A DNA stretch of 64,000 nucleotides. Source: a virus. Its lineage: Duplodnaviria; Caudoviricetes. The notes under the pieces are model-generated. The model was not told the origin of the DNA and searched no databases. It saw only the letters and a program-made list of their open reading frames with translations. The DNA lies in IMG/VR virus record IMGVR_UViG_2706796257_000001, positions 64,001 through 128,000 of that record; one strand, written 5' to 3'. The translations under genes and the position numbers were made by a program. Of the stretch, positions 426 through 20,160 are shown in pieces; positions within the stretch are counted from its first letter, which is position 1; the number at the start of each line of letters is the position of its first letter.

Positions 426-3119
426 TTAGAAGTCAAACATATCTTCTAATGATGCTTTCTCTTCGTAGTCCATACCAGCAGCCTCACACATGCCAGTCAA
501 AGGTTTGACAAAAGACTTCTGAAAGAGCGTGGTGTAATCCATCCAAGCCAATACTTCTGAACGAATTTCCTGTGGCAACTCAGTACCTGATGGCCAAGCA
601 ATACACTTATCACCAAACGGGTTTCCTTCACGCAAAGGAACAATCATTACTTTGTTCCCCTCAAGAATTGGAGTAGCGCTGAACCCAGCAGTCGCTCGGT
701 TGTAAGTCAAAGCACCTCGAATGTGGAACGGACACTTAAATCCAGGCCATCCGTTATCGTCATACTTGGCGATGTCATTACATGTCTTAACTTCTGCAAT
801 GATTTTGTAATCAAGACCACGGTATTCTTTTTCAAATTGCTTGTAATATTCTTGTACTGATTTTTCACCTTCTTGAAGCATACGACGAATACTTTCTTCC
901 AATGCTGCCTGCACCGCCTTTGGAGTGGAAGATTGCTGAGTTTCCATACCCATGATTTTTAGATGCGGCTCAGTGTAACGAGTATCTTCCATGTCATATA
1001 CGTTCAATGCATAACGTTTCTTAGCTTTCCAGAAACCGCCAATACCCTTTGAACCAAGAGGAGGACAAGAAATAGCCTCACGGTCCATATGCATTAAGTG
1101 TTCTTTATTATTCATGTACTCGCAAAGCTCACGGTAAGCTTTGTCAATCATAGGTTCCATTTTTTTCTTACCAAATTGGTTCATGAATTCAACCAAATCA
1201 TTGGTATTTTTAAAACGCTCTAAACCTACTTTTTCAATTACTTTATCAACAGAAACGTAAACTGAGTCAGTGTCGCCTGCCGCTATAAAATCTTCATTTG
1301 TTGTACCGCATACTCGGTTCAGATACTCGTTAATCTTACGAGCAATCCACTGGATACCAACCTGACCGAACAGAGTGATAGCAGTCGCATTACGAAGGTC
1401 AAAATATCGGAAATAAATGTTACCGAGAGCACCATAAAGACTGTTGATGAGAATTTTACGGTTCAACTGGTTTGTATTAGCCAAAATACTCGCAAGTTCA
1501 CAATCATGCAGCATCGCTTTCAGAGCTGACACACTTAACCTGTGGAGTTCATTCTTCACTTCATCGCTAAAATCTTTATAACGCTCAACCTGAATTTTAC
1601 CGCCAGTTCCACCGGATTTTGAAGCGATAACAGCATTAATAACTTCGATGTTACGGTTTTCGGCTTGCTGCTTTTTCTTCCAATCTTTACGTTGGAAAAA
1701 TACCTTCGCAATCTCAACCGGGATAATACCCTCACGGTCTTTATGATACATCCAACCGTTTGGTGAACATGAATATGTATCACTAGGCCGCGGTGCTGTT
1801 CCATTGATGTATTCATGAATTGGATGAAGCTTAAACTGACCAGCGATAGTTTCTGGACTGATATTCACTTGACGAATGATACTTGGATAAAGAGACGTCA
1901 AGTCAAAACTCATGATATAATTACGAGCACATGCTTTTGGTTCAAATACATAAGCACCCGGGAAGCTCTGCTTAACATGCGAACGTCCTTGTGGAACCAC
2001 TCGCTTATCTTCTTTGAGACTATTGAAAATAATAGCATCCCAGGTTTTAATCGGGCTCATTACACCGCCAAAAGGCATTTTAGCGTAATAAGACATACTA
2101 ATTGCTAGGTCGATGAACCCACGAACTTGGTCGATACCTTGCACCGATTCAACGTCCATGATGTTATAACTGATATAACGTTGATGGTTCGTTTCGCGCA
2201 ATTTGTTAATTGGACCATCATAAGGCAGTTTACCTTTTTTGGTCTCATATTTTGCAACATAATCCAAAGTATAAGACGGTTGGTTCGTGAAACTGTACTT
2301 TTTGTACAAATCCATGTAATCAAGAATAGTTACGCCGTCAATGCTAAATACTTCTTTATCACCATACATGTTAGTGATAATTTTAGATTTCACGCGATTG
2401 ATTGGTGAAAAACGCTTCATCGAACGTTCACCTAGAACTTGCTTAACGCGGTTCATGATATACGGAATATCAAAACCTTCAATGTTCCAACCGGTGAAAA
2501 TTGCTGGACGCTTTTGTTCCCAAAGACGAATATATTCCATCAATAGTTCGGCTTCAGTTTCAAACGGTAGATAAACAACCCGGTCAAGAATATCTTGTGG
2601 AACTTCGTCACCGCCCTCTGCTTCACAACGAGCTGCTAACTTTTTATCCCATTTGGATACCGACCCATACAATGAATGGAGTAAATCAAAGACATAAAAT
2701 TTGTCATCAATAGAATCGTAATGAGTGATAGCATCAATTTCATATTCTGCTTTCATCGGGTCTGGGAATTTATCGCCAGTAACTTCGATGTCACAGTTCG
2801 CTACACGAATGAATTTTCGGTCATAAACAATTTCGGAACCATATGTGTCACTGATATATGCGAGTTTAAAATCATCCATGCCCATTGCTTCAAGACCGAC
2901 GTCTTCCATGCGCTTGAACCAATCACGAGCATCCTTCATTGTAGGAAAATTGATTGGCTCGCAGTCCTTTCCATAGATGTCTTTGAATTTTGATGGTTTA
3001 TCAACATGACGGAACAAAGTCGGAGAATATTCGATACGACGAGTTTTTTCTACGCCATCTTCAATATATCGTTCAACAATATCATTACCAACACTTTCTA
3101 CAGATACATAAAATTTCAT
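426..3119 (-). CDS. 43: DNA polymerase gp43 (family B)
   Basis: Exo motif DIEV, SFDLTSLYPS, KILINSLYG, AAGDTDS, C-terminal clamp peptide SLEDMFDF. Confidence 0.99.
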   Translation of the reverse strand: MKFYVSVESVGNDIVERYIEDGVEKTRRIEYSPTLFRHVDKPSKFKDIYGKDCEPINFPTMKDARDWFKRMEDVGLEAMGMDDFKLAYISDTYGSEIVYDRKFIRVANCDIEVTGDKFPDPMKAEYEIDAITHYDSIDDKFYVFDLLHSLYGSVSKWDKKLAARCEAEGGDEVPQDILDRVVYLPFETEAELLMEYIRLWEQKRPAIFTGWNIEGFDIPYIMNRVKQVLGERSMKRFSPINRVKSKIITNMYGDKEVFSIDGVTILDYMDLYKKYSFTNQPSYTLDYVAKYETKKGKLPYDGPINKLRETNHQRYISYNIMDVESVQGIDQVRGFIDLAISMSYYAKMPFGGVMSPIKTWDAIIFNSLKEDKRVVPQGRSHVKQSFPGAYVFEPKACARNYIMSFDLTSLYPSIIRQVNISPETIAGQFKLHPIHEYINGTAPRPSDTYSCSPNGWMYHKDREGIIPVEIAKVFFQRKDWKKKQQAENRNIEVINAVIASKSGGTGGKIQVERYKDFSDEVKNELHRLSVSALKAMLHDCELASILANTNQLNRKILINSLYGALGNIYFRYFDLRNATAITLFGQVGIQWIARKINEYLNRVCGTTNEDFIAAGDTDSVYVSVDKVIEKVGLERFKNTNDLVEFMNQFGKKKMEPMIDKAYRELCEYMNNKEHLMHMDREAISCPPLGSKGIGGFWKAKKRYALNVYDMEDTRYTEPHLKIMGMETQQSSTPKAVQAALEESIRRMLQEGEKSVQEYYKQFEKEYRGLDYKIIAEVKTCNDIAKYDDNGWPGFKCPFHIRGALTYNRATAGFSATPILEGNKVMIVPLREGNPFGDKCIAWPSGTELPQEIRSEVLAWMDYTTLFQKSFVKPLTGMCEAAGMDYEEKASLEDMFDF

Positions 3120-3146
3120 ATAGTTTTCCTCATGATTAATTTAAAA

Positions 3147-3851
3147 TTATTTTATACTATTTTTCTTAATGCAATTAAAGTAATCTATAATTTTCTGATA
3201 ACTAGTAATTGGAAAACCATTGGCTATTGCTATTGTTTTAAATTTTCCACATTTTGGATTTTCAAAAGATTCCCATAAATCAAATAACTTGCTAAATAAC
3301 GGTTCTGACCATATAGGATGAGTACGTTTTATTTTACGTTGAATATCTTTTGCTTCAATTGAACTATGCCATTTTTTAAGACTCGCTGAAATACGTTCTC
3401 GTATTTCAGGATTGTTGTGATACGACAATTTCTGCGCTTTTGAGCAATTCTCTATAACTTTGTTATTCGAATAAACCTTTTTCATTGTGTTAGAATGAGC
3501 TTTTAAATTTTCAGGATTTTTGAAATACTCTTTCATTTCCTTTGATTTTTCTTTTACAAATATTTCTCTATTTTTACTGTATTCTTTAGAATTTAATTCT
3601 ACTGAATTTAGATGCATTCTTGTTGTCATTCGCCATAAAGCATATTTCAACGCTGAATTTTCAGGATACATTTTAGTTAAAAGCCAATGAGCTATATAGT
3701 GGTCTTTAGAGCTCAAATTAACTAAATTGCTTTTATCATTTGTTCCTCCCATACATTTTGGAATTATGTGATGAGATTCCGTGTATTCAAAATTATAAGT
3801 GGAAGATTTAGCTGCGTTTATGAGAGATTCGTATTCAAAATTGTAGTTCAT
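3147..3851 (-). mobile_element. Free-standing Mob-type HNH homing endonuclease
   Basis: MNY..HHIIPKCMGG.N...NLV.L...H..AH motif with basic C-terminal region; lies between regA and 43. Confidence 0.9.
3149..3175 (-). promoter_or_regulatory. Putative MotA middle promoter for gene 43 inside the HNH gene 3' end
   Basis: ATTGCATTA-N12-TAAAAT. Confidence 0.5.
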
Positions 3852-3876
3852 TATATCATCCAAATTTATAGCAGAA
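3850..3876 (-). promoter_or_regulatory. Putative middle promoter (P43-like)
   Basis: TTCTGCTA-N13-TATAAT; the -10 overlaps the HNH ATG. Confidence 0.5.
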
Positions 3877-3895
3877 AAGGCCCACGGGCCTTTTC
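3874..3895 (-). terminator. Rho-independent terminator after regA
   Basis: GAAAAGGCC-CGTG-GGCCTTTTC. Confidence 0.8.
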
Positions 3896-3902
3896 ATTTG
3901 AG

Positions 3903-4265
3903 TTATGCACCTATAGTATATTTCGCGATAAGTTTCCAATCGTCTTTTTGCTTAAATGTGATGACGCGGAAATTATTTTGCATAGCTTGAAGAGAACCTC
4001 TGTCTACAAGTTCGATTAAACCCCAATCTTCTAGGAGTTGAGCAATCGAGTCACGGCGGATAATATCTTCATCGTCAATAGTGACTGGTCGTCCGTCCAG
4101 TTTAAGCATCTCTTTAAAATGAACTACATAATAAAGACCCTGCTTCTGCAAGATATGACAACTTTGATATAATACACGGTCTCTGTTATTAGCAATACCC
4201 ATGCGAGTAAGAGTTTCTTTTACTTTCAGGAAGTCTTCAGGTTGTTTCAGTTTAATTTCGATCAT
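3903..4265 (-). CDS. regA: Translational repressor RegA
   Basis: MIEIKLKQPEDFLKVKETLTRMGIANN...YQSCHILQK, synteny. Confidence 0.98.
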   Translation of the reverse strand: MIEIKLKQPEDFLKVKETLTRMGIANNRDRVLYQSCHILQKQGLYYVVHFKEMLKLDGRPVTIDDEDIIRRDSIAQLLEDWGLIELVDRGSLQAMQNNFRVITFKQKDDWKLIAKYTIGA

Positions 4266-4831: not shown

Positions 4832-5787
4832 TTCCAATCCATCTCTAAAGTAAGCTGAATAAGCATATAAACGATATGTAGTTCTGTATTTGCCGCAATA
4901 CCATGATATTGGTTGTTTTCACCAATAATTTCATACATCCTAATGATACTTGGGCCTTTTACGAGATTGTAAAGTTCATTTGAAAGCTTATCAACAAACC
5001 AAGAATAATCTACCGCATATTTTGGAGCGAGAGCACGAAGCTGCTTAACATCTTTAGCTTTTAATGCATCTAAAACATCATTAACTGAACCATTGTCATT
5101 AGTTACAATACTCAGAATTCCAGCATCCAAGACACCTTTGGACGAATACATATCAAGTTCGCCAATAGTCTTACGAAAATCTGGAAAGTTCTTTTTAACT
5201 AAAGCAGCAACAACTTTTAAATCGGCGATTTCAATATTTTCATTTTTGCATATTTCAACCATACGACGAATCATCTGTTTCATCATTGTTGTACGGTCTT
5301 CTTCTGTTGCTTGGCCAAATTTAATTACTCGGCAACGCGAACGAAGTGGTTCAATAATGCCGTCAATATTGTTGGCAGTAATAATAACAGAACAGTTACT
5401 TGAATATGCTTCTAAAAATGAACGCAAATGACGCTGAGATTCAGCAAGTCCAGAACGGTCAAATTCGTCAATAACAATAACTTTTTGACGACCTTCAATA
5501 GAAGCAGAACTTGCAAAATTAGTTAATGGCCCACGGACAAAATCAATTTTACAATCTGAACCATTCACAAACATCATATCAGCATTTGTGTCATTACACA
5601 AAGCTTTTGCTGTAGTTGTTTTACCTGTACCTGGTGAAGCAGATACCAGAATCATATGAGGGATTTTACCGCTTTTAACAATTTTATTCATTGTTTCGCG
5701 GTCGGCGGCGGGAAGGATACATTCTTCAATTGTAGAAGGACGATACCGTTGTTCAAGGATGTGTTCTTTTTCGTTAATTGTAATCAT
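4828..5787 (-). CDS. 44: Clamp loader AAA+ subunit gp44
   Basis: [16 protein letters not shown] motif. Confidence 0.99.
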
Positions 5788-14349: not shown

Positions 14350-14466
14350 TTAATATTGTCCAAAGAAAATGAAAGCATAAAGAGCGGGGAACTCTTCACC
14401 AAAACGCTCAATGTAACTGTACATGTACACTTGAAGTTCATGAATCCAAGGATAGTGAATCTGCAT
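14350..14466 (-). CDS. Small hypothetical protein (38 aa)
   Basis: Manual translation MQIHYPWIHELQVYMYSYIERFGEEFPALYAFIFFGQY. Confidence 0.65.
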   Translation of the reverse strand: MQIHYPWIHELQVYMYSYIERFGEEFPALYAFIFFGQY

Positions 14467-14929
14467 TTAACCATTCCTCATTGTGTTGTTTCCATAGCCG
14501 CTGGTTATCTGAACCACGCCATGGCTTATCAGTTGGGTTATCTTGTTCATATTTACCATCAATAATAACATCAATGTATTTTAGCAATTCGAGGTGCTTG
14601 ATGTCTTCAAACTTGTAACCAGTCCACATCCAGATATCTTTTTTGGGAAAACGCGCTTTAACCCATTTAACTAGAGCTTCAATATCTTCTCTGTTGCCTC
14701 GATAAAGAGGGTCTCCTCCAGTAAGAGTAAGTCCTTGGATGTATGGTTTTGAAAGATGTTCTGCGATTTCTTTTACTGTATTAGAGTTAAATGTCTCACC
14801 GTTGCAAGGGTTCCAAGTGCTTTTATTATAGCATCCTTGGCATTTGTGAATACAACCCGTAACGAAAAGAACGACCCTGCAGCCAGGGCCATTCACAAAA
14901 TCGCATGGATAAATTCTATCATATTTCAA
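14438..14929 (-). CDS. nrdG: Anaerobic RNR activase NrdG (radical SAM)
   Basis: CIHKCQGC, GLTLTGGDP, WRGSDNQR; TTG start. Confidence 0.98.
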   Translation of the reverse strand: MKYDRIYPCDFVNGPGCRVVLFVTGCIHKCQGCYNKSTWNPCNGETFNSNTVKEIAEHLSKPYIQGLTLTGGDPLYRGNREDIEALVKWVKARFPKKDIWMWTGYKFEDIKHLELLKYIDVIIDGKYEQDNPTDKPWRGSDNQRLWKQHNEEWLNADSLSLDS

Positions 14930-16742
14930 TGTGTTTTGTCCTATGCATGATTTCTTTATTCTTACCTAGGTTAAATCCTCGGTCAGAAGGATTACCAAGA
15001 TATCCGCAAGTCCTTCTAATAGTATTCATCTTCTTAGGATTAGTCTCGCCACAAACAGTACATTCAAATCCGTTTTCAGTTGGTTTCATTTCATGAGTTG
15101 ACCCACAACTCAAACATTTATCAACTGGCATATTAACACCAAAATAATCCAGTTTTTCTACAGCATAATCCCAGACTGCTTCAAGAGCTTGAATATTTCT
15201 CTTCATATCAGGCAATTCAACATAAGATATGTGTCCACCCTTTGCAATGAAGTGGTATTTTGCTTCTTGGTCAATTTTTTCAAATGGAGAAATTTTTTCT
15301 TCAACTGAAACATGGAAGCTATTAGTATACCATCCTTTGTCGGTTACGCCTTTGACTATTCCGTGTTTTTCTGCGTCAATTTTACAGAAACGATAACATA
15401 ACGATTCTGCCGGGGTACTATAAAGGCTAAAAGCATATCCTGTTTCTTCGGTCCATTCGCGGAGATAATCATTCATGTGTTTAAGCACTAATTCACCGAT
15501 GCCTTTGTAGGTCATTAGCTCAAGCTCGTGAATTCCGATATATCCAAGTGAAATAGAACTTCTACCATTTTTAAACAACTCAATGATTTCATCATCCGGT
15601 TTCATTCGAACGCCAAAAGCTCCTTCTTGATACAGAATCGGAGCCACCGAAGCTTTTACGCCTTTCAGTGATTCGATACGAAGCATCAGCGAGTCTTTAC
15701 AGATCTTCATTCGGCAGTCTAGTAGATGCATGAACATGTTTAAATCTGTTTTGCCATTGACCTGAGAATCCAAAGCTATACGAGGAAGATTTAATGTAAC
15801 AACACCTAGATTATTGCGTCCATCAAGAATAAATTTACCATCGGAATTTTTCCATGCGCTCAAAAAGCTTCTACACCCCATTGGAGATACAGGAATAGGA
15901 GAACCAGTAATCTTACGATTATTCTTGGCGCTAATAATATCGGGATACATTCGCTTAGAAGCGCATTCTAAAGCTAGTTGTTTGATATCATAATTTGGGT
16001 CTTCACTGCGAAGATTTAAACCTTCTTCAACGAACATAACCAATTTAGGAAAAATTGGAGTAATTCCATGACGACCTAATCCCCGAATACGATTTTTAAG
16101 AATAGCTTGTTGAATTAGTTTTTCTTCCCAAGATGTCCCCATACCAAATGTAATGGTAACGAAAGGTGTTTGGCCGTTAGAACTGAAAAGAGTATTAACT
16201 TCATATTCATATCCTTGAAAAGCATCGAATACATCTTTTTCTGTTTTTTCTTGAGCGTATAATTCAGCTTCTGGAATATGATATCGGCGAGCGTCTTCGA
16301 TATGTTTGTTGAAAGTTGCTTCTACATAAGGAGCTAGTACTTGGTCGACATTAGCAAATGTAGTTCCACCATATTGATGAGAAGCTACTTGAGCTGTAAT
16401 TTGAGCCATTACGGCAGTTGCTACACCAATTGAATTTGATGTTTCAATTTCAGCATTACCGAGTTTAAACCCATTTTGAAGCATTCCGGCTAAATCTACT
16501 AAGCAACAGTTAGTAAACGGAAGCGATGGTGAATAATCCATGTCATGAAAATGGATAATTCCTTTATCATGAGCATCTAGTATAGAGACTGGAATGACCT
16601 TACGGGCGACATGCTTAGAAACAATGCCGGCCATAAGGTCGCGTTGGGTGGGAAATACTCGCGAATCTTTATTCGCGTTTTCATTTAAAAGGTCTGTATT
16701 AGTTCTATCAAACAGACCTTTGATTTCAGTTTCAATTGTCAT
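14919..16742 (-). CDS. nrdD: Class III ribonucleotide reductase NrdD, intronless
   Basis: NENANKDS, NCCL, MGCRSF, RRTCGYLG glycyl-radical loop. Confidence 0.99.
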   Translation of the reverse strand: MTIETEIKGLFDRTNTDLLNENANKDSRVFPTQRDLMAGIVSKHVARKVIPVSILDAHDKGIIHFHDMDYSPSLPFTNCCLVDLAGMLQNGFKLGNAEIETSNSIGVATAVMAQITAQVASHQYGGTTFANVDQVLAPYVEATFNKHIEDARRYHIPEAELYAQEKTEKDVFDAFQGYEYEVNTLFSSNGQTPFVTITFGMGTSWEEKLIQQAILKNRIRGLGRHGITPIFPKLVMFVEEGLNLRSEDPNYDIKQLALECASKRMYPDIISAKNNRKITGSPIPVSPMGCRSFLSAWKNSDGKFILDGRNNLGVVTLNLPRIALDSQVNGKTDLNMFMHLLDCRMKICKDSLMLRIESLKGVKASVAPILYQEGAFGVRMKPDDEIIELFKNGRSSISLGYIGIHELELMTYKGIGELVLKHMNDYLREWTEETGYAFSLYSTPAESLCYRFCKIDAEKHGIVKGVTDKGWYTNSFHVSVEEKISPFEKIDQEAKYHFIAKGGHISYVELPDMKRNIQALEAVWDYAVEKLDYFGVNMPVDKCLSCGSTHEMKPTENGFECTVCGETNPKKMNTIRRTCGYLGNPSDRGFNLGKNKEIMHRTKHIEI

Positions 16743-17824
16743 TTTAAGCCTTTCTTTAAATAAGAGACATAATCTTCAAGCCATTCTATTGTCAATAGAA
16801 TTTCTTCGGGGCTTTTTAAATTAGCCTTTATTTCTTTAAAAGAATTTGTCATTATTTTAGAAGTATGTTCAATTTTAATAGTTTCTACTAAATTTAAAGT
16901 CGAAAGTCTCTCAATGTAAGACTTTTTATCTTCAATTTGTAATTTAATAATCTCGCCAGATTTAACAAATTTAGAACAGCTTCCACGATTAGAACCAAAG
17001 AATTCTTCGACTTCGGAATTTGACGCAAACTTTTTACCAGTTTCCACATGTTGAAACTTCCATCGCTGACGTCGAATTGAAGGATGCAGTGTCCATCGAT
17101 CTTTTATAATATCAAGTTTTCCATTTAATAAATTTGTAATATTAGACGATGAAATATCATTTTTTCTTGCAAATTCAGCTTGATTTATTACTTCGATTTC
17201 GCACGAATTTAGTTCATCCCAAATTTTAAATTTAGAAACAGAATGATACACTGATAATTTTTCTTCCTTTGAGCGACCAAATTGCCAGCCAGAATCTAAA
17301 TACTTTTGAACATCATCGGGTTTAACATATTTGGTTTTTTGACCAATTTTATACATCATCGGCCATGAAACATGCTCATTTCCTTTGTCAAAATTCATCC
17401 ATCGAGCAATATCTTCTTCTGTTAAATCATCGAAGCAGTTAGGGTTAAAATGCCCGCCAATTTGTTTGTTTAACCACATAGGGTCTCGTAATACGTCATT
17501 AGCAAGTTGCATTTCCATTTCAGCCATTAAAGTTTTACCCCAAGTTGGATACCATCCAACAATTAGATATTCTTTAGGCTTTATACCATTTTCCAACATC
17601 GAATTCAATTCATTTGATGAAGATGTATAAGTCTTCCAATCTGATTCTTCAAATCCTTTTTTAGGACCGCGTTTAAACGTTGAAGGGGCAGCTTTAATTC
17701 TTTTCCAAATCTTTTTAGCGCCTACATACTTTTTACCGTCTTCAAACGTGATTACATAAACAAATCCAATATTATTTTTAATATCTGTTTCTTCAAAAAC
17801 AGACCAATGACCATAATCTGACAT
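16739..17824 (-). CDS. GIY-YIG endonuclease with NUMOD-like DNA-binding modules, occupying the gene 49 position
   Basis: GFVY-x9-YVG, ESDWKTY.SSS, E..Q..DVL...WLN; GWQFGR and two HTH-like repeats. Confidence 0.85.
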   Translation of the reverse strand: MSDYGHWSVFEETDIKNNIGFVYVITFEDGKKYVGAKKIWKRIKAAPSTFKRGPKKGFEESDWKTYTSSSNELNSMLENGIKPKEYLIVGWYPTWGKTLMAEMEMQLANDVLRDPMWLNKQIGGHFNPNCFDDLTEEDIARWMNFDKGNEHVSWPMMYKIGQKTKYVKPDDVQKYLDSGWQFGRSKEEKLSVYHSVSKFKIWDELNSCEIEVINQAEFARKNDISSSNITNLLNGKLDIIKDRWTLHPSIRRQRWKFQHVETGKKFASNSEVEEFFGSNRGSCSKFVKSGEIIKLQIEDKKSYIERLSTLNLVETIKIEHTSKIMTNSFKEIKANLKSPEEILLTIEWLEDYVSYLKKGLK

Positions 17825-17865
17825 TATAAATACATCCTTTTTACTAATATTATGATGTATTTATA
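17825..17865 (-). promoter_or_regulatory. Late promoter within an RBS-sequestering hairpin
   Basis: TATAAATA at 17858-17865; perfect 12-bp inverted repeat TATAAATACATC/GATGTATTTATA overlapping SD AAGGA. Confidence 0.9.
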
Positions 17866-17872
17866 CAATAAG

Positions 17873-18028
17873 CTAAACCATTAATTTATCTAAATTATAG
17901 AGCCAATACGTCCTTGCCCATTTCTTACGGTTTCGGATTTGAGCTTTAGTCGGCTTAGTAGAGAACCACCAAGAAATTTTATACCCATCATCTTCAATAA
18001 TTTCAAAAACTTTATTCACTAAACTCAT
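17873..18028 (-). CDS. Small hypothetical protein (51 aa)
   Basis: Manual translation MSLVNKVFEIIEDDGYKISWWFSTKPTKAQIRNRKKWARTYWLYNLDKLMV. Confidence 0.65.
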   Translation of the reverse strand: MSLVNKVFEIIEDDGYKISWWFSTKPTKAQIRNRKKWARTYWLYNLDKLMV

Positions 18029-18039
18029 ATTAAATTCCA

Positions 18040-18390
18040 TCACTTTTTAGTATTAGGAGTATCAAATAATGATATGATGCAATCCGGATTTCCGGTTATA
18101 TGGCAGCTTGTAAACAGTGCCCAGCGGCTTAAAGCCCATTTACCTAAAATTGCTTTAGACCTTTTATTGCATTCTTCAATGCCAAGAGTCATATTAAGTC
18201 TTGGAAAATAAACAGAAGTTATACCAGTGATTTCTCCGGTGTCAGTAAAACTTGAATAGCATTTGGAAATAACAAGTTCATCACCAGGGATAACACCCAT
18301 ATCTTTGAAATAGTCTATCACATCTCCAAGCTCATGCTTGACTTTAAAAACTTCCGGTTTTACCGTAAGTTTAAGTCCAGTTAAATTCAT
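18040..18390 (-). CDS. Hypothetical protein at the pin position
   Basis: ORF follows 49.1; no convincing Pin identity. Confidence 0.7.
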   Translation of the reverse strand: MNLTGLKLTVKPEVFKVKHELGDVIDYFKDMGVIPGDELVISKCYSSFTDTGEITGITSVYFPRLNMTLGIEECNKRSKAILGKWALSRWALFTSCHITGNPDCIISLFDTPNTKK

Positions 18391-18529
18391 TAAAGCCCTC
18401 ACAATCTAGTATCTCGTTCATCGTGGGTTCATTATAACATGGTTCTTCATCTGTGTAAACTGGTTCTTCTGGTTCGGGCTCTATGGTTTCCCACCGAGCT
18501 GCCCACCATGGTTTTAAAGCGTAACCCAT
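18371..18529 (-). CDS. 49.1: gp49.1 (52 aa, not in ORF track)
   Basis: MGYALKPWWAARWETIEPEPEEPVYTDEE..YNEPT. Confidence 0.9.
   Translation of the reverse strand: MGYALKPWWAARWETIEPEPEEPVYTDEEPCYNEPTMNEILDCEGFNEFNWT
18431..18460 (-). promoter_or_regulatory. Early promoter inside 49.1
   Basis: GTTTAC-N18-TATAAT. Confidence 0.8.
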
Positions 18530-18822
18530 TCTGTGATTGTCCTCGTCACGACGCGTTCTTGTTTTTCAACAAGCGAAACATCAGGTTTATTGTAATACCA
18601 ATCCGAATGATATGAACCCGAACGAGTTTCATTTACAGCAACATGAACATCATGCTTTTTGCTGTAGTAAACTACCTGTCGGTATTGATATTTGTGGCCT
18701 TGAACCCAGTCTTCGGCTTCCACTTTTTCGAGATATTCAGAATCGTCAAAATCATAATATTCGTTATACCCATCATGGTCTTCCATGATTTCTTTAAGAA
18801 TATCAGTTTGTCCAGGAGTCAT
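18514..18822 (-). CDS. 49.2: gp49.2
   Basis: HKYQYRQVVYYSKKHDVHVAVNETRSGSYHSDWYY. Confidence 0.85.
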   Translation of the reverse strand: MTPGQTDILKEIMEDHDGYNEYYDFDDSEYLEKVEAEDWVQGHKYQYRQVVYYSKKHDVHVAVNETRSGSYHSDWYYNKPDVSLVEKQERVVTRTITEWVTL

Positions 18823-18986
18823 TATTCACCTCGTAAATGATTAAGCTGTTCGTCATTGACCCAGCTCTCAAGACCAGATGGCAGGTCGCATTCAATCTGC
18901 CAAAGTAACTCTTCAACTTCATAAAGTCTAAATAGTTCTTCTTGTTTAATAACTGCTTCGTCGTCATTCAATTCAATCGTTTTCAT
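18822..18986 (-). CDS. Hypothetical protein
   Basis: MKTIELNDDE..., ATGA coupling. Confidence 0.75.
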   Translation of the reverse strand: MKTIELNDDEAVIKQEELFRLYEVEELLWQIECDLPSGLESWVNDEQLNHLRGE

Positions 18987-19174
18987 TGCAATGTCCACAT
19001 AAATTTGAAAAGATTTTCTTGGACTACAGCATCGTCCCAGCCCCAAACATTAATGTCTTCTGCTAATTCGCTTGGAAGCACATCAAGAACTTGCTGAATA
19101 CTAGGAGCTGATATACCAATTCTTTTAGCACATCGACTATAAGCAGCTAAAAATTCATCATAGTTATTAATCAT
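18983..19174 (-). CDS. Hypothetical protein
   Basis: ORF, overlapping neighbours. Confidence 0.75.
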   Translation of the reverse strand: MINNYDEFLAAYSRCAKRIGISAPSIQQVLDVLPSELAEDINVWGWDDAVVQENLFKFMWTLQ

Positions 19175-19394
19175 AAAGTTTCACCATACAATCGCCATAT
19201 TTCCACTTTGACATAACCTTTTCGCCGGTAGAGTAAGTTACTTCAACCTTAGCTCGGTGATTTTTTATTTGAACAATTCTACCGGTTTCAAGACCACCGA
19301 AGCCATAATAAAGCGCAATTATATCATTAACGAAAAGCTCTTTTCCGCGATAATCACGCATGTAATCTTGGCCTTCGACCATATGTTCTCTCAT
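19167..19394 (-). CDS. Hypothetical protein
   Basis: ORF, ATGA overlap with nrdC. Confidence 0.8.
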   Translation of the reverse strand: MREHMVEGQDYMRDYRGKELFVNDIIALYYGFGGLETGRIVQIKNHRAKVEVTYSTGEKVMSKWKYGDCMVKLYD

Positions 19395-19654
19395 CGAAAA
19401 TACTCGCGCAATTTATCAAAACCACCAATATAACTTCCATCTGGAGCAAATATCTGCGGTACAGTAAGACCGATTTGCGTATCTCTTCCAAGACGAGTCA
19501 AAAGTTCAGCAATAATTTCATCATCAAATACGCCTTTTTCTGGCATGATATTGATGAACTCATATGGTTGCTTTTTAACATTCAGAAGACGTTTAGCGTT
19601 ATCACAGAATACACATTTATGAATGTTGCTGTCGTAACCGAATACTTTGAACAT
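19391..19654 (-). CDS. nrdC: Glutaredoxin/thioredoxin NrdC
   Basis: MFKVFGYDSNIHKCVFCDNAKRLL...PQIFAPDGS.IGGFD. Confidence 0.98.
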   Translation of the reverse strand: MFKVFGYDSNIHKCVFCDNAKRLLNVKKQPYEFINIMPEKGVFDDEIIAELLTRLGRDTQIGLTVPQIFAPDGSYIGGFDKLREYFR

Positions 19655-20160
19655 TATTTTACCTCTACCGGGAACACTTGGGCCAATTTTGCGGCAATAG
19701 CTTTATCAATAATTTCGCTAAAACTTTCATTCAATCGAGAAACAATCATTTCTTCATATTTGCGTTCATTAATCTTGATTGCATCGGCGATATAATTTTC
19801 CATTCGCTTAGCTGCAGTATCAGCGACCTTTTTAAGAGCGTTAAAAAGTTGTTCATGAGCTACTCGTTCTGCTTCTTCTTTCATTACTCGTTCAAGCTCA
19901 AAAGTACCTTCGGGCTTCCAGCCTTTACGTTCAAAGAACTTCTTTAATTCTTCACGGACTGCGTATTCTACGTTAGGAATACGGGCACCTTGTAAAGCAA
20001 TTTCAGATTTAACCGCTTCAGTAATTTTATTTTTGGTGTCCTTAACAACGAGTTCTTTAACAATATTGTTAATCACGGATTGTTGTAAAGCAACTCGCAT
20101 TGCAGAGCCTTCAGGAAACAACTGACGAACTGCGTGAGTATCTAATTTTAAATCAATCAT
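19654..20160 (-). CDS. Hypothetical helical protein
   Basis: ORF, TAATG coupling. Confidence 0.8.
   Translation of the reverse strand: MIDLKLDTHAVRQLFPEGSAMRVALQQSVINNIVKELVVKDTKNKITEAVKSEIALQGARIPNVEYAVREELKKFFERKGWKPEGTFELERVMKEEAERVAHEQLFNALKKVADTAAKRMENYIADAIKINERKYEEMIVSRLNESFSEIIDKAIAAKLAQVFPVEVK

What the first reader, a model, noticed from the sequence alone, without database searches (positions are those of the whole stretch)
16739..17865. Endonuclease VII (gene 49) slot is taken by a GIY-YIG nuclease: possible non-orthologous replacement of the Holliday-junction resolvase
Seen: between 49.1/49.2 and nrdD there is no gp49 (no CxxC..DHDH..RGLLC..CN motif in any ORF of the window). 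A 361-aa GIY-YIG protein sits there, preceded by a late promoter in an RBS-hiding hairpin and ending KKGLK in an ATGA overlap with nrdD. Its tail IEWLEDYVSYLK resembles the recalled Endo VII segment LEWLENLLTYLK. Known: T4 gene 49 occupies this position with this type of control and junction, and is essential for debranching DNA before packaging; GIY-YIG enzymes such as Slx1 can cut branched DNA. Inference: either a homing endonuclease was domesticated as the resolvase, or it displaced gene 49, which now lies elsewhere. The NUMOD-like modules argue for a homing origin.
Basis: partly seen in the sequence, partly recalled or inferred. Interest (0 to 1): 0.85.

Follow-up and report, generated by a model that had tools for sequence, protein, structure and literature searches.

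The report
GIY-YIG nuclease replaces phage resolvase gene
In this T4-type Salmonella phage the gene for the DNA-debranching enzyme endonuclease VII is missing from the whole genome, and a homing-endonuclease-like nuclease that still carries a short piece of the lost enzyme sits exactly in its place, so it probably took over the job.

Summary
Window 16739-17824 (-) is a 361-aa SegE-type GIY-YIG protein. It lies between the 49.x genes and nrdD, overlaps nrdD by ATGA, and follows a TATAAATA motif that forms the 5' arm of a 12-bp hairpin ending at the start codon.

Endonuclease VII (PF02945) is absent from the window's 158-kb genome and from the complete S16 genome. It is over cut-off in 0 of 14 genomes carrying this protein or a homologue, and in 5 of 5 sister or control phages.

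In five phage groups, close relatives carry either gene 49 or this gene at the same spot. In the vibriophages that spot is a different genomic neighbourhood.

Three metagenomic homologues (427-499 aa) are fused in frame to the Endo VII C-terminal half, which includes Pfam's dimerisation domain. The S16-type tail aligns to Endo VII residues 82-98. The gene therefore arose inside gene 49.

"Gene 49 lies elsewhere" is refuted. "Domesticated as the resolvase" is the best reading (about 0.6) but rests only on comparison; no biochemistry exists.

Petrov et al. 2010 already named "putative alternative nucleases" to gp49 in RB16 and Aeromonas phage 65. The fusion forms, the Endo VII remnant and the recurrent swap turned up in none of my literature searches.

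The parts
16739..17824 (-). 361-aa SegE-type GIY-YIG nuclease gene occupying the gene 49 slot
   Evidence: ORF. PF19835 E 2.3e-33. phrog_7363 E 3e-193. 99.4% identical to the S16 'homing endonuclease' gp48.
17459..17800 (-). GIY-YIG catalytic domain (residues 9-122)
   Evidence: Pfam stretch 9-122; the same stretch was found in the genome search (G000:C1:81459-81800). Model residues 19-122 match the I-TevI catalytic domain 1ln0, Z 6.0, rmsd 2.8, 81 aligned. Y23, Y33, G35, E102 and N119 are invariant in 35 sequences.
16877..17257 (-). Homing-endonuclease-type modular DNA-binding region (residues about 190-316)
   Evidence: AF2 pLDDT mostly above 85 here. VIA-align: I-HmuI 1u3e residues 111-174, Z 6.5, rmsd 2.8, 60 aligned. 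I-TevI DNA-binding domain 1t2t, Z 5.0, rmsd 1.8, 40 aligned.
16748..16798 (-). C-terminal helix that is a remnant of Endo VII (residues 343-359, aligning to gp49 82-98)
   Evidence: MAFFT alignment A1. hhalign E 0.036, the only alignment returned. The T4 Endo VII sequence is shown. Fused relatives continue from this point into the rest of Endo VII.
17825..17865 (-). Late-promoter-like TATAAATA (17858-17865) forming the 5' arm of a 12-bp hairpin whose 3' arm abuts the start codon and covers part of the Shine-Dalgarno region
   Evidence: Sequence. Fold dG -10.3, z -2.8, 2 of 200 shuffles as good. The same layout appears upstream of gp49 genes and GIY-YIG genes in 13 of 13 loci folded.
14919..16742 (-). 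nrdD, translationally overlapped (ATGA) with the end of the GIY-YIG gene, as it is with gene 49 in CkP1
   Evidence: Window-CkP1 homology runs through nrdD to window 16747 and resumes at 17884.
17873..18043 (-). Upstream 56-aa ORF (DUF7279), the first conserved flank on the other side of the swapped segment
   Evidence: PF23945 E 1.1e-10. 83.5% identical to the CkP1 ORF just upstream of gp49.

Best explanation
A SegE-type GIY-YIG nuclease gene has replaced gene 49 (endonuclease VII) in situ. The protein has three parts: an I-TevI-like catalytic domain (residues 9-122), a homing-endonuclease-type DNA-binding region (about 190-316), and a C-terminal helical hairpin whose last helix is what is left of Endo VII.

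Shown: the replacement, the absence of any Endo VII gene, the descent of the tail from Endo VII, and the either/or alternation of the two genes among close relatives.

Inferred: the protein is made mainly late, because only late transcripts starting inside the hairpin free the ribosome-binding site. It supplies the debranching and Holliday-junction-cutting activity needed before headful packaging. It probably acts as a dimer through the Endo VII-derived helices, with the GIY-YIG site doing the cutting in place of the lost Zn/HNH site. It may at the same time still behave as a mobile element that converts gene-49 alleles to itself in mixed infections.
For: 1) No Endo VII. PF02945 is over cut-off in 0 of 14 genomes carrying this protein or a homologue: own genome, S16, TG1, Bp7, Ac42, RB16, phage 65, MHG19, EcoM_005, leE, avDM2, KLB1, Vibrio D484 and CC2. 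It is over cut-off in 5 of 5 controls: CkP1, JS98, K566, CGG4-1 and RB43.

2) Same slot.
- In 10 of 13 named phage loci read, the gene lies between nrdC/pin/49.x and nrdD or nrdH.
- In Vibrio D484 it lies between rnlB and a head-morphogenesis gene, where K566 and KVP40 have gene 49.
- In phages 65 and CC2 it lies between nrdA and gene 35.

3) Either/or pairs inside five groups:
- S16 / CGG4-1;
- Bp7 / JS98, flanks 94% and 90% identical;
- RB16 / RB43;
- KLB1 / KLB25;
- D484 / K566, flanks 93% and 99% identical.

4) Breakpoints hug the ORF. Bp7-JS98 homology stops 17 nt before the ATG, and Bp7 keeps the last 20 nt of gene 49 after its stop codon. D484-K566 homology resumes at the stop codon.

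5) Fusion forms. P0023, P0024 and P0026 (427, 499, 432 aa) carry PF19835 plus PF09124, E 1e-11 to 5e-16.
- P0023 residues 342-424 match gp49 76-157, E 3e-16.
- P0026 residues 357-430 match T4 Endo VII 84-157, E 1.4e-14.
- The AF2 model of P0026 matches 1e7d with Z 10.1, rmsd 9.1, 96 aligned, the only hit with Z>=8.
- One fused ORF is continuous in DNA directly after an nrdC-like gene (L019).
- In the P0023/P0026 pair the Endo VII-like part is as conserved (52%) as the middle region (55%).

6) The tail motif I-x-W-L-x-x-Y-I-x-Y-L-K is conserved across short forms that are only 52-81% identical overall.

7) Catalytic-type residues are invariant in 35 sequences.

8) No RusA, RuvC or T7 endonuclease I family was found in the genome.

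9) T4 gene 49 is described as essential in T4 in PMC2993671 (passages read).
Against: No activity, oligomeric state or essentiality data exist for any member of the family.

The protein keeps a long modular DNA-binding region typical of site-specific homing enzymes. That is not what known junction resolvases look like.

The S16-type protein lacks PF09124, and its Endo VII-like tail is only 17 residues (E 0.036). The Vibrio and Aeromonas 65/CC2 versions lack the tail altogether.

Its patchy distribution within genera is also what a purely selfish homing gene shows.

Endo VII is not universal among T4 relatives. PMC2993671 says many quasicore genes of its group are absent in marine cyanophages. 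[quoted passage not shown]

The Bp7 copy carries two compensating frameshifts and EcoM_005 a 33-aa in-frame deletion. CPRSA and CPRSB copies are split, but those records have many split genes.

Fold likeness to the GIY-YIG junction nucleases is weak: Slx1 Z 2.5, At-HIGLE Z 3.4.
Confidence: 0.6

Rival explanations
1. A purely selfish free-standing homing endonuclease whose target lies in or beside gene 49. Homing copied it over gene 49, and the phages survive because Endo VII is dispensable for them. Host RuvC, the terminase nuclease or other phage nucleases clear the branches. The Endo VII remnant and the fusions are scars of insertion.
For: The architecture is that of a Seg/I-TevI-type enzyme. 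Presence within Gelderlandvirus, Dhakavirus, Slopekvirus, Pseudotevenvirus and one vibriophage group is patchy. Hairpin and late-promoter control is typical of phage homing genes (PMC2988022). Gene 49 is not universally conserved among T4 relatives (PMC2993671; PMC4177764). There are some damaged copies.
Against: In every one of 14 genomes the gain coincides with loss of a gene that the review calls essential in T4. Known free-standing T4 homing genes sit between intact genes rather than delete their target (table and text of PMC2988022). The Endo VII C-terminal half stays in frame and recognisable in three diverged fusion proteins. The 12-residue tail motif is conserved in lineages 52-81% identical. 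Scars would decay. Nearly all copies are intact, with invariant catalytic-type residues.
Confidence: 0.27
2. Dual-purpose element: both a working homing endonuclease aimed at gene 49 alleles and the phage's resolvase. The selfish gene secures its own retention by destroying and then substituting for an essential enzyme. This is a special case of the best explanation; its probability is given in the section on the most novel reading and is not additional to the 0.6.
For: It combines the two evidence sets above. The either/or alleles have 90-99% identical flanks. The gene is found at gene 49's place in three different genomic contexts, which is easiest to explain if gene 49 sequence itself guides the event. 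The cassette retains gene 49's leader and 3' end.
Against: No target site is known. No co-infection data exist. The tree is rooted at the midpoint only and cannot order the events.
Confidence: 0.3
3. Endo VII is still present but is too diverged, split, or located in the roughly 6% of the genome missing from this record.
For: The window's genome record is rated 94% complete.
Against: The complete S16 genome and 12 other complete records also lack it. The HMM found gp49 at E 1e-17 to 1e-22 in 5 of 5 control genomes, including distant vibriophage and pseudo-T-even ones. No DHDH or zinc-motif pattern occurs in any frame.
Confidence: 0.03

Closest known systems
T4 endonuclease VII (gp49; PF02945 + PF09124; PDB 1e7d/1en7/2qnc)
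   Same: It has the same genomic slot, the same ATGA coupling to nrdD as in CkP1, and the same promoter-in-hairpin leader. The last helix of the protein aligns to Endo VII 82-98. Fused relatives carry Endo VII 76-157.
   Different: It has no zinc site, no DHDH/HNH-type catalytic core and no PF09124 domain in the S16-type protein. The nuclease fold is GIY-YIG.
Free-standing GIY-YIG homing endonucleases of T-even phages (SegA-G, esp. SegE) and I-TevI
   Same: PF19835 match. I-TevI-like catalytic fold and I-TevI/I-HmuI-like DNA-binding modules. Patchy occurrence among close relatives. Hairpin and late-promoter control.
   Different: It does not sit as an extra gene between intact genes; it takes the place of a gene called essential in T4. 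It carries a piece of that gene, and in some relatives half of it, fused in frame.
'Putative alternative nucleases' to gp49 noted in RB16 (RB16ORF270c) and Aeromonas phage 65 (65ORF061w) by Petrov et al. 2010 (PMC2993671), citing Petrov et al. 2006, J Mol Biol 361:46
   Same: RB16 and phage 65 both carry homologues of the window protein (58% and 31% identity) and both lack PF02945. These are probably the same genes. The RB43 record uses the same ORF naming style, and ORF number against map position is consistent.
   Different: I could not verify the ORF identities because the 2006 paper is not held and supplements are closed. The review passages I read say nothing of a GIY-YIG fold, of fusions to Endo VII, of an Endo VII remnant, or of S16-type phages.
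Eukaryotic GIY-YIG structure-selective nucleases (SLX1, At-HIGLE, ANKLE1)
   Same: They are a precedent that a GIY-YIG site can cut Holliday junctions and branched DNA (abstracts of PMC9071465 and PMC10287932 seen in the listing).
   Different: Only weak fold likeness: At-HIGLE 7wme Z 3.4, Slx1 7cq2 Z 2.5. Accessory domains differ, and there is no evidence of common descent beyond the superfamily.
F-CphI of cyanophage S-PM2 (homing endonuclease built on the Endo VII catalytic motif; PMC6083498)
   Same: It shows traffic between resolvase and homing-endonuclease roles in T4-type phages (abstract and passages read).
   Different: It is the mirror image. There an Endo VII catalytic core serves a homing enzyme; here a homing-type catalytic core sits in the Endo VII position.

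Membership tests
GIY-YIG nuclease superfamily, SegE-like family (PF19835) | Profile match over the curated cut-off | tested here: met
   115.5 bits against a cut-off of 25, E 2.3e-33, residues 9-122.
GIY-YIG nuclease superfamily, SegE-like family (PF19835) | GIY and YIG motifs plus conserved Glu and Asn | tested here: met
   G20-F-V-Y23 and Y33-V-G35, E102 and N119 are invariant or nearly so in 35 sequences. Their equivalence to I-TevI catalytic residues is by recall plus the fold match, not residue-level superposition.
GIY-YIG nuclease superfamily, SegE-like family (PF19835) | GIY-YIG fold | tested here: met
   I-TevI catalytic domain 1ln0 Z 6.0, rmsd 2.8, 81 aligned. Also T4 EndoII Z 3.9 and UvrC Z 3.9. 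These Z values are middling.
Free-standing homing endonuclease (Seg type) | Nuclease domain joined to modular DNA-binding domain | tested here: met
   I-HmuI DNA-binding part Z 6.5 and I-TevI helix-turn-helix Z 5.0. Pfam finds no NUMOD model.
Free-standing homing endonuclease (Seg type) | Optional gene, present or absent among close relatives | tested here: met
   Five within-group either/or pairs.
Free-standing homing endonuclease (Seg type) | Inserted between intact conserved genes, with the target gene left whole | tested here: not met
   The alternative allele is not an empty site but gene 49, which is lost.
Free-standing homing endonuclease (Seg type) | Site-specific double-strand cut and gene conversion in mixed infection | not testable with these tools
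   Needs enzyme assays and phage crosses.
Endonuclease VII (gp49) | Zinc-binding CxxC pairs and DHDH/HNH-type catalytic core (PF02945) | tested here: not met
   No PF02945 match in the protein or the genome. No such motif in any frame.
Endonuclease VII (gp49) | C-terminal dimerisation domain PF09124 | tested here: not met
   Absent from the window protein at E<=0.1. Present in fused homologues P0023, P0024 and P0026.
Endonuclease VII (gp49) | Helix at residues about 82-98 preceding the dimerisation domain | tested here: inconclusive
   It was the only hhalign alignment returned, E 0.036 over 17 columns. It is supported indirectly by the fused forms.
Holliday junction resolvase (functional class) | Homodimer making paired nicks across a four-way junction | not testable with these tools
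SLX1/ANKLE1-type GIY-YIG structure-selective nucleases | Close fold and sequence relationship and their accessory domains | tested here: inconclusive
   Slx1 7cq2 Z 2.5 and At-HIGLE 7wme Z 3.4, over the catalytic domain only. Pfam reports no other domain.

The most novel reading that the evidence does not exclude
The cassette is a homing element that aims at the resolvase gene itself. It recombines into gene 49 using gene 49's own leader and C-terminal coding sequence. It throws out the Zn/HNH catalytic half and plugs its GIY-YIG nuclease onto the remaining Endo VII dimerisation helices. It thereby becomes the phage's essential debranching enzyme. A selfish gene would make itself indispensable by catalytic-domain replacement, and one protein would serve both as homing endonuclease and as Holliday-junction resolvase.
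Probability: 0.3. Interest if true: 0.9.

Novelty: new variant of a known kind. Interest (0 to 1): 0.72.

Why it matters
Endo VII was the first Holliday-junction resolvase identified (ACS Omega review, PMC10956419), and Petrov et al. 2010 (PMC2993671) call it essential in T4.

Here a nuclease of an unrelated fold stands in its place in at least 39 sequenced phages of several genera. Natural intermediates show the new catalytic domain grafted onto the old enzyme's C-terminal half, which includes Pfam's dimerisation domain.

If the protein resolves junctions, it would be the first prokaryotic or viral GIY-YIG resolvase that I know of (from recall, not a dedicated search). It would also be a clear case of a homing-type gene being domesticated, or of one enforcing its own retention.

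It offers matched natural pairs of phages for direct tests: S16/CGG4-1, Bp7/JS98, RB16/RB43 and D484/K566. It also corrects annotation, because these genes are filed as 'homing endonuclease' or 'hypothetical protein', while the phages appear to lack a resolvase.

Tried and rejected
Gene 49 elsewhere: rejected.

Other known resolvase families in the genome: none found for RusA, RuvC or T7 endonuclease I. RecU and Hjc were not searched.

Whole-model Foldseek against the PDB gave no match at E<=0.001; the best was I-HmuI at E 0.09. A family profile against PDB sequences gave nothing meaningful, best E 0.38, with neither I-TevI nor Endo VII. Endo VII was not among the 50 rows listed for the S16-type model in the VIA-align search; it appears only for the fused form.

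The search for related loci with P0023 alone found no relative in IMG/VR. The alignment query found 14 loci, of which one (L019) is a fused form. A word search with the Endo VII-like part of P0023 returned only P0023 itself, so I cannot say how common such chimeras are. The profile search of 1.84 billion representatives gave 1464 proteins at E<=0.001 but only 19 at E<=1e-30. The full-length family is therefore small within a large SegE-like domain family.

I looked for a gp49-bearing sister of Aeromonas phages 65/CC2 by flank search, and none appeared among the 25 rows shown.

I considered arguing recent horizontal transfer from the 68-73% nucleotide identity between the Ac42 gene and the enteric-phage genes. 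I dropped this because most of the 1192 matching records in the same search fell in the same 60-80% identity band.

The tree nests the fused forms among short forms, but it is midpoint-rooted. I cannot say whether the dimerisation domain was lost several times or regained by recombination with a resident gene 49.

The split copies in CPRSA and CPRSB were set aside as evidence of dispensability, because neighbouring dam, nrdC and nrdD are also in pieces in those records.

Literature searches found no paper that describes this family as a gp49 replacement other than PMC2993671. Either could hold details on RB16ORF270c/65ORF061w or on the role of Endo VII residues 82-98.


Full report
WHAT IS THERE.
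The window belongs to a 158,099-bp phage record. It is about 97% identical over window 14400-19700 to Salmonella phage S16, genus Gelderlandvirus.

On the minus strand the gene order is: nrdC, small ORFs including a T4 49.2-like one, a 56-aa DUF7279 ORF (17873-18043), the 361-aa ORF 16739-17824, nrdD (14919-16742), nrdG. The 361-aa ORF overlaps nrdD by ATGA.

Its N-terminus is a SegE-type GIY-YIG domain (PF19835, residues 9-122, E 2.3e-33). The whole protein matches phrog_7363 'homing endonuclease'.

An AlphaFold2 model built on 35 homologues (mean pLDDT 83.4) shows:
- a catalytic domain like that of I-TevI (1ln0, Z 6.0, rmsd 2.8, 81 aligned);
- a poorly ordered linker;
- a DNA-binding region like the C-terminal part of I-HmuI (Z 6.5) and the helix-turn-helix of I-TevI (Z 5.0);
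- two final helices, 321-334 and 339-360.

These Z values are middling, but the matches are mutually coherent.

Upstream, TATAAATA at 17858-17865 forms the 5' arm of a 12-bp stem. The 3' arm ends at the base before the ATG (dG -10.3, z -2.8, 2 of 200 shuffles as good).

NO ENDONUCLEASE VII.
- The Pfam Endo VII model found nothing in the window's genome.
- It found nothing in the complete S16 genome, while it scored 1.6e-21 on Citrobacter phage CkP1 in the same call.
- tblastn with CkP1 gp49 gave nothing below E 0.44.
- No DHDH or zinc-motif pattern exists in any frame.

In CkP1 a 157-aa gp49 sits in exactly this slot with the same overlap onto nrdD. Window-CkP1 DNA homology runs through nrdD to window 16747 and resumes at 17884. 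The swapped segment is therefore the gene plus its leader.

THE SAME SWAP ELSEWHERE.
tblastn of the protein against 50,697 phage records found 77 records. Of these, 39 have 54-99% identity over at least 98% of the length.

I read the annotation around 13 named phage loci.
- Ten lie in the nrdC/pin/49.x to nrdD-or-nrdH slot: S16, TG1, Bp7, Ac42, RB16, MHG19, EcoM_005, leE, avDM2 and KLB1.
- Vibrio phage D484 has a 37%-identical homologue between RNA ligase and a head-morphogenesis gene, on the opposite strand.
- Aeromonas phages 65 and CC2 have 31-32%-identical ones between nrdA and gene 35.

PF02945 is over its cut-off in 0 of the 14 genomes, counting the window's own. Two have sub-threshold hits inside large ORFs: MHG19 (16 bits, a 562-aa frame) and phage 65 (15.7 bits, a 775-aa frame). 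These are not gp49-sized genes.

Five of five comparison genomes are positive: CkP1, JS98, K566, CGG4-1 and RB43. The genomes are not phylogenetically independent, but five separate within-group pairs are.
- Gelderlandvirus: S16 against CGG4-1, which has a 157-aa Endo VII after pin.
- Dhakavirus: Bp7, PSD9 and LQ5 against JS98, IME08, VR5 and others.
- Pseudotevenvirus: RB16 against RB43.
- Slopekvirus: KLB1 against KLB25.
- Vibriophages: D484 against K566.

KVP40 and its relatives also have gene 49 at the RNA-ligase site (PMC3468402 table). The replacement therefore follows gene 49 into a different genomic neighbourhood.

BREAKPOINTS.
Bp7 and JS98 are 94% identical up to 17 nt before the Bp7 start codon, inside the leader hairpin and after a shared AATAAATA motif. 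They are 90% identical again from the last 20 nt of JS98 gene 49 onward, and Bp7 keeps those 20 nt after its own stop codon.

D484 and K566 diverge 72 and 37 nt upstream of their respective start codons and rejoin at the stop codon, with flanks 93% and 99% identical.

I folded the 76 nt around the start codon of 13 loci: 11 GIY-YIG genes, including one fused form, and 2 gp49 genes.
- An ATAAATA motif (11 of 13) or TTAAATA motif (2 of 13) lies 30-45 nt upstream. The exact TATAAATA occurs only in the window.
- The minimum-energy fold has a stem whose 3' arm reaches the start-codon region in 13 of 13. Only the window's hairpin was tested against shuffles.

This layout is shared by gene 49 and by phage homing genes alike (PMC2988022). 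It shows continuity of regulation but does not decide function.

A PIECE OF ENDO VII IS STILL THERE.
Among 45 homologues from the large protein collection, three longer ones (427, 499 and 432 aa) carry both PF19835 and PF09124, the Endo VII dimerisation domain, at E 1e-11 to 5e-16.
- P0023 residues 342-424 align to CkP1 gp49 76-157 (36% identity, E 3e-16).
- P0026 residues 357-430 align to T4 Endo VII 84-157 in the PDB (E 1.4e-14).
- The AF2 model of P0026 (pLDDT 79.2) has T4 Endo VII 1e7d as its top structural match: Z 10.1, rmsd 9.1, 96 aligned, model 330-430 to chain 58-157. It is the only hit with Z>=8. The high rmsd is expected if the helices are arranged differently outside the swapped dimer.
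- One fused ORF is continuous in DNA, 33 nt after an nrdC-like gene, with no HNH piece between them (L019).

In the multiple alignment the short forms end exactly where the fused forms and gp49 run on. The window's TIEWLEDYVSYLKKGLK lies over gp49's DYLEWLENLLVYLKND. Profile-profile comparison of the short forms with gp49 returns this and no other alignment (E 0.036).

The motif I-x-W-L-x-x-Y-I-x-Y-L-K is better conserved than the 30 residues before it. In the P0023/P0026 pair the Endo VII-like part is as conserved (52%) as the middle region (55%).

The gene therefore arose within gene 49. The Zn/HNH half was replaced, and in most lineages the dimerisation domain was later lost or, alternatively, regained in a few. 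The midpoint-rooted tree cannot tell which.

HOW IT MOST LIKELY WORKS.
Shown: the replacement, the absence of Endo VII, descent of the tail from Endo VII, an intact GIY-YIG domain with invariant catalytic-type residues, and no RusA, RuvC or T7 endo I family in the genome.

Inferred: early read-through transcripts hide the ribosome site in the hairpin, and late transcripts starting inside the stem free it, as described for I-TevI (PMC2988022). The protein then removes branches from replicated and recombined DNA before packaging, the role the reviews give to Endo VII (PMC2993671; PMC10956419). I put this at about 0.6.

The chief rival, at about 0.27, is a purely selfish homing gene in phages that can do without Endo VII. 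In its favour are the site-specific-type DNA-binding region, the patchy distribution, the non-universality of gene 49, and the Bp7 and EcoM_005 lesions.

A combined reading, homing element and resolvase in one, is a subset of the first and would explain why the gene turns up wherever gene 49 is.

WHAT IS KNOWN.
Petrov et al. [quoted passage not shown] Both phages carry homologues of the window protein and lack PF02945. These are very probably the same genes, but I could not confirm it because the 2006 paper is not held.

None of my eight literature searches found a description of the GIY-YIG/Endo VII fusions, the Endo VII remnant, the repeated either/or alleles, or the S16 case. None found any biochemical test.

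Databases label the gene 'homing endonuclease' or 'hypothetical protein'.

VERDICT.
The 'gene 49 elsewhere' branch is refuted. The 'replacement of the resolvase' branch is well supported as an evolutionary fact and plausible, but untested, as a functional one.

It is a new variant of known kinds: a Seg-type GIY-YIG nuclease in the role and place of Endo VII. It was partly anticipated in print for two relatives. Interest 0.72.

Noticed in passing
G000:C1:144926-145174 (+), outside the window (loci L034/L035): A second SegE-like GIY-YIG frame (214-aa open frame, 35.2 bits summed) lies elsewhere in the same genome. It is probably an ordinary free-standing Seg-type gene.
   Followed up: no
window 14438-16742 versus L037 (CGG4-1) 2070-3035: Within one genus the neighbourhood differs beyond the swap. 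S16-type phages have nrdD and nrdG after the GIY-YIG gene. CGG4-1 goes from Endo VII through two small ORFs straight to nrdH with no nrdD/nrdG, as do Dhakavirus, TG1 and Ac42. The GIY-YIG gene is therefore not tied to nrdD.
   Followed up: partly
L001 (S16 RefSeq) about 5505-5669 versus window about 18400-18520: S16, UTK0003 and AKM_NP4 match the window in two pieces, spanning about 179 bp more than the query. STP4-a and SEA1 match in one piece. This suggests a small indel among near-identical phages, possibly at the S16 'gp48.1' ORF.
   Followed up: no
W09 (MHG19) C1:31521-31694 and W07 (phage 65) C1:21303-21407: There are sub-threshold Endo VII-motif hits (16 and 15.7 bits) inside 562-aa and 775-aa open frames. 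They may be HNH-type inserts in large proteins and are not gp49-sized genes.
   Followed up: no
L012 (leE) 3577-3903 and L014 (KLB1) 3577-3903: Pseudotevenvirus and Slopekvirus members have an extra 108-aa ORF between the GIY-YIG gene and nrdD. It overlaps the GIY-YIG gene's stop by 4 nt.
   Followed up: no
L005 (Bp7) 3001-4065; L011 (EcoM_005) 2501-3475: The Bp7 copy needs two compensating frameshifts about 60 codons apart to be read through. EcoM_005 has a 33-aa in-frame deletion in the poorly ordered linker. Sequencing error versus real decay is not resolved.
   Followed up: partly
L042, L043 (Klebsiella phages CPRSB, CPRSA): These records annotate dam, nrdC, nrdD and the GIY-YIG gene all in pieces (442 and 483 features in 180 and 199 kb). 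This looks like indel-rich assemblies rather than biology.
   Followed up: partly
L009 (JS98) gene 49 codons about 95-98 versus L005 (Bp7) end of the GIY-YIG gene: The Dhakavirus GIY-YIG protein ends ...YLKS, matching the local gp49 ...YLKSD, whereas CkP1 gp49 has ...YLKND. This hints that the 3' junction was shaped by recombination with the resident gene 49.
   Followed up: no
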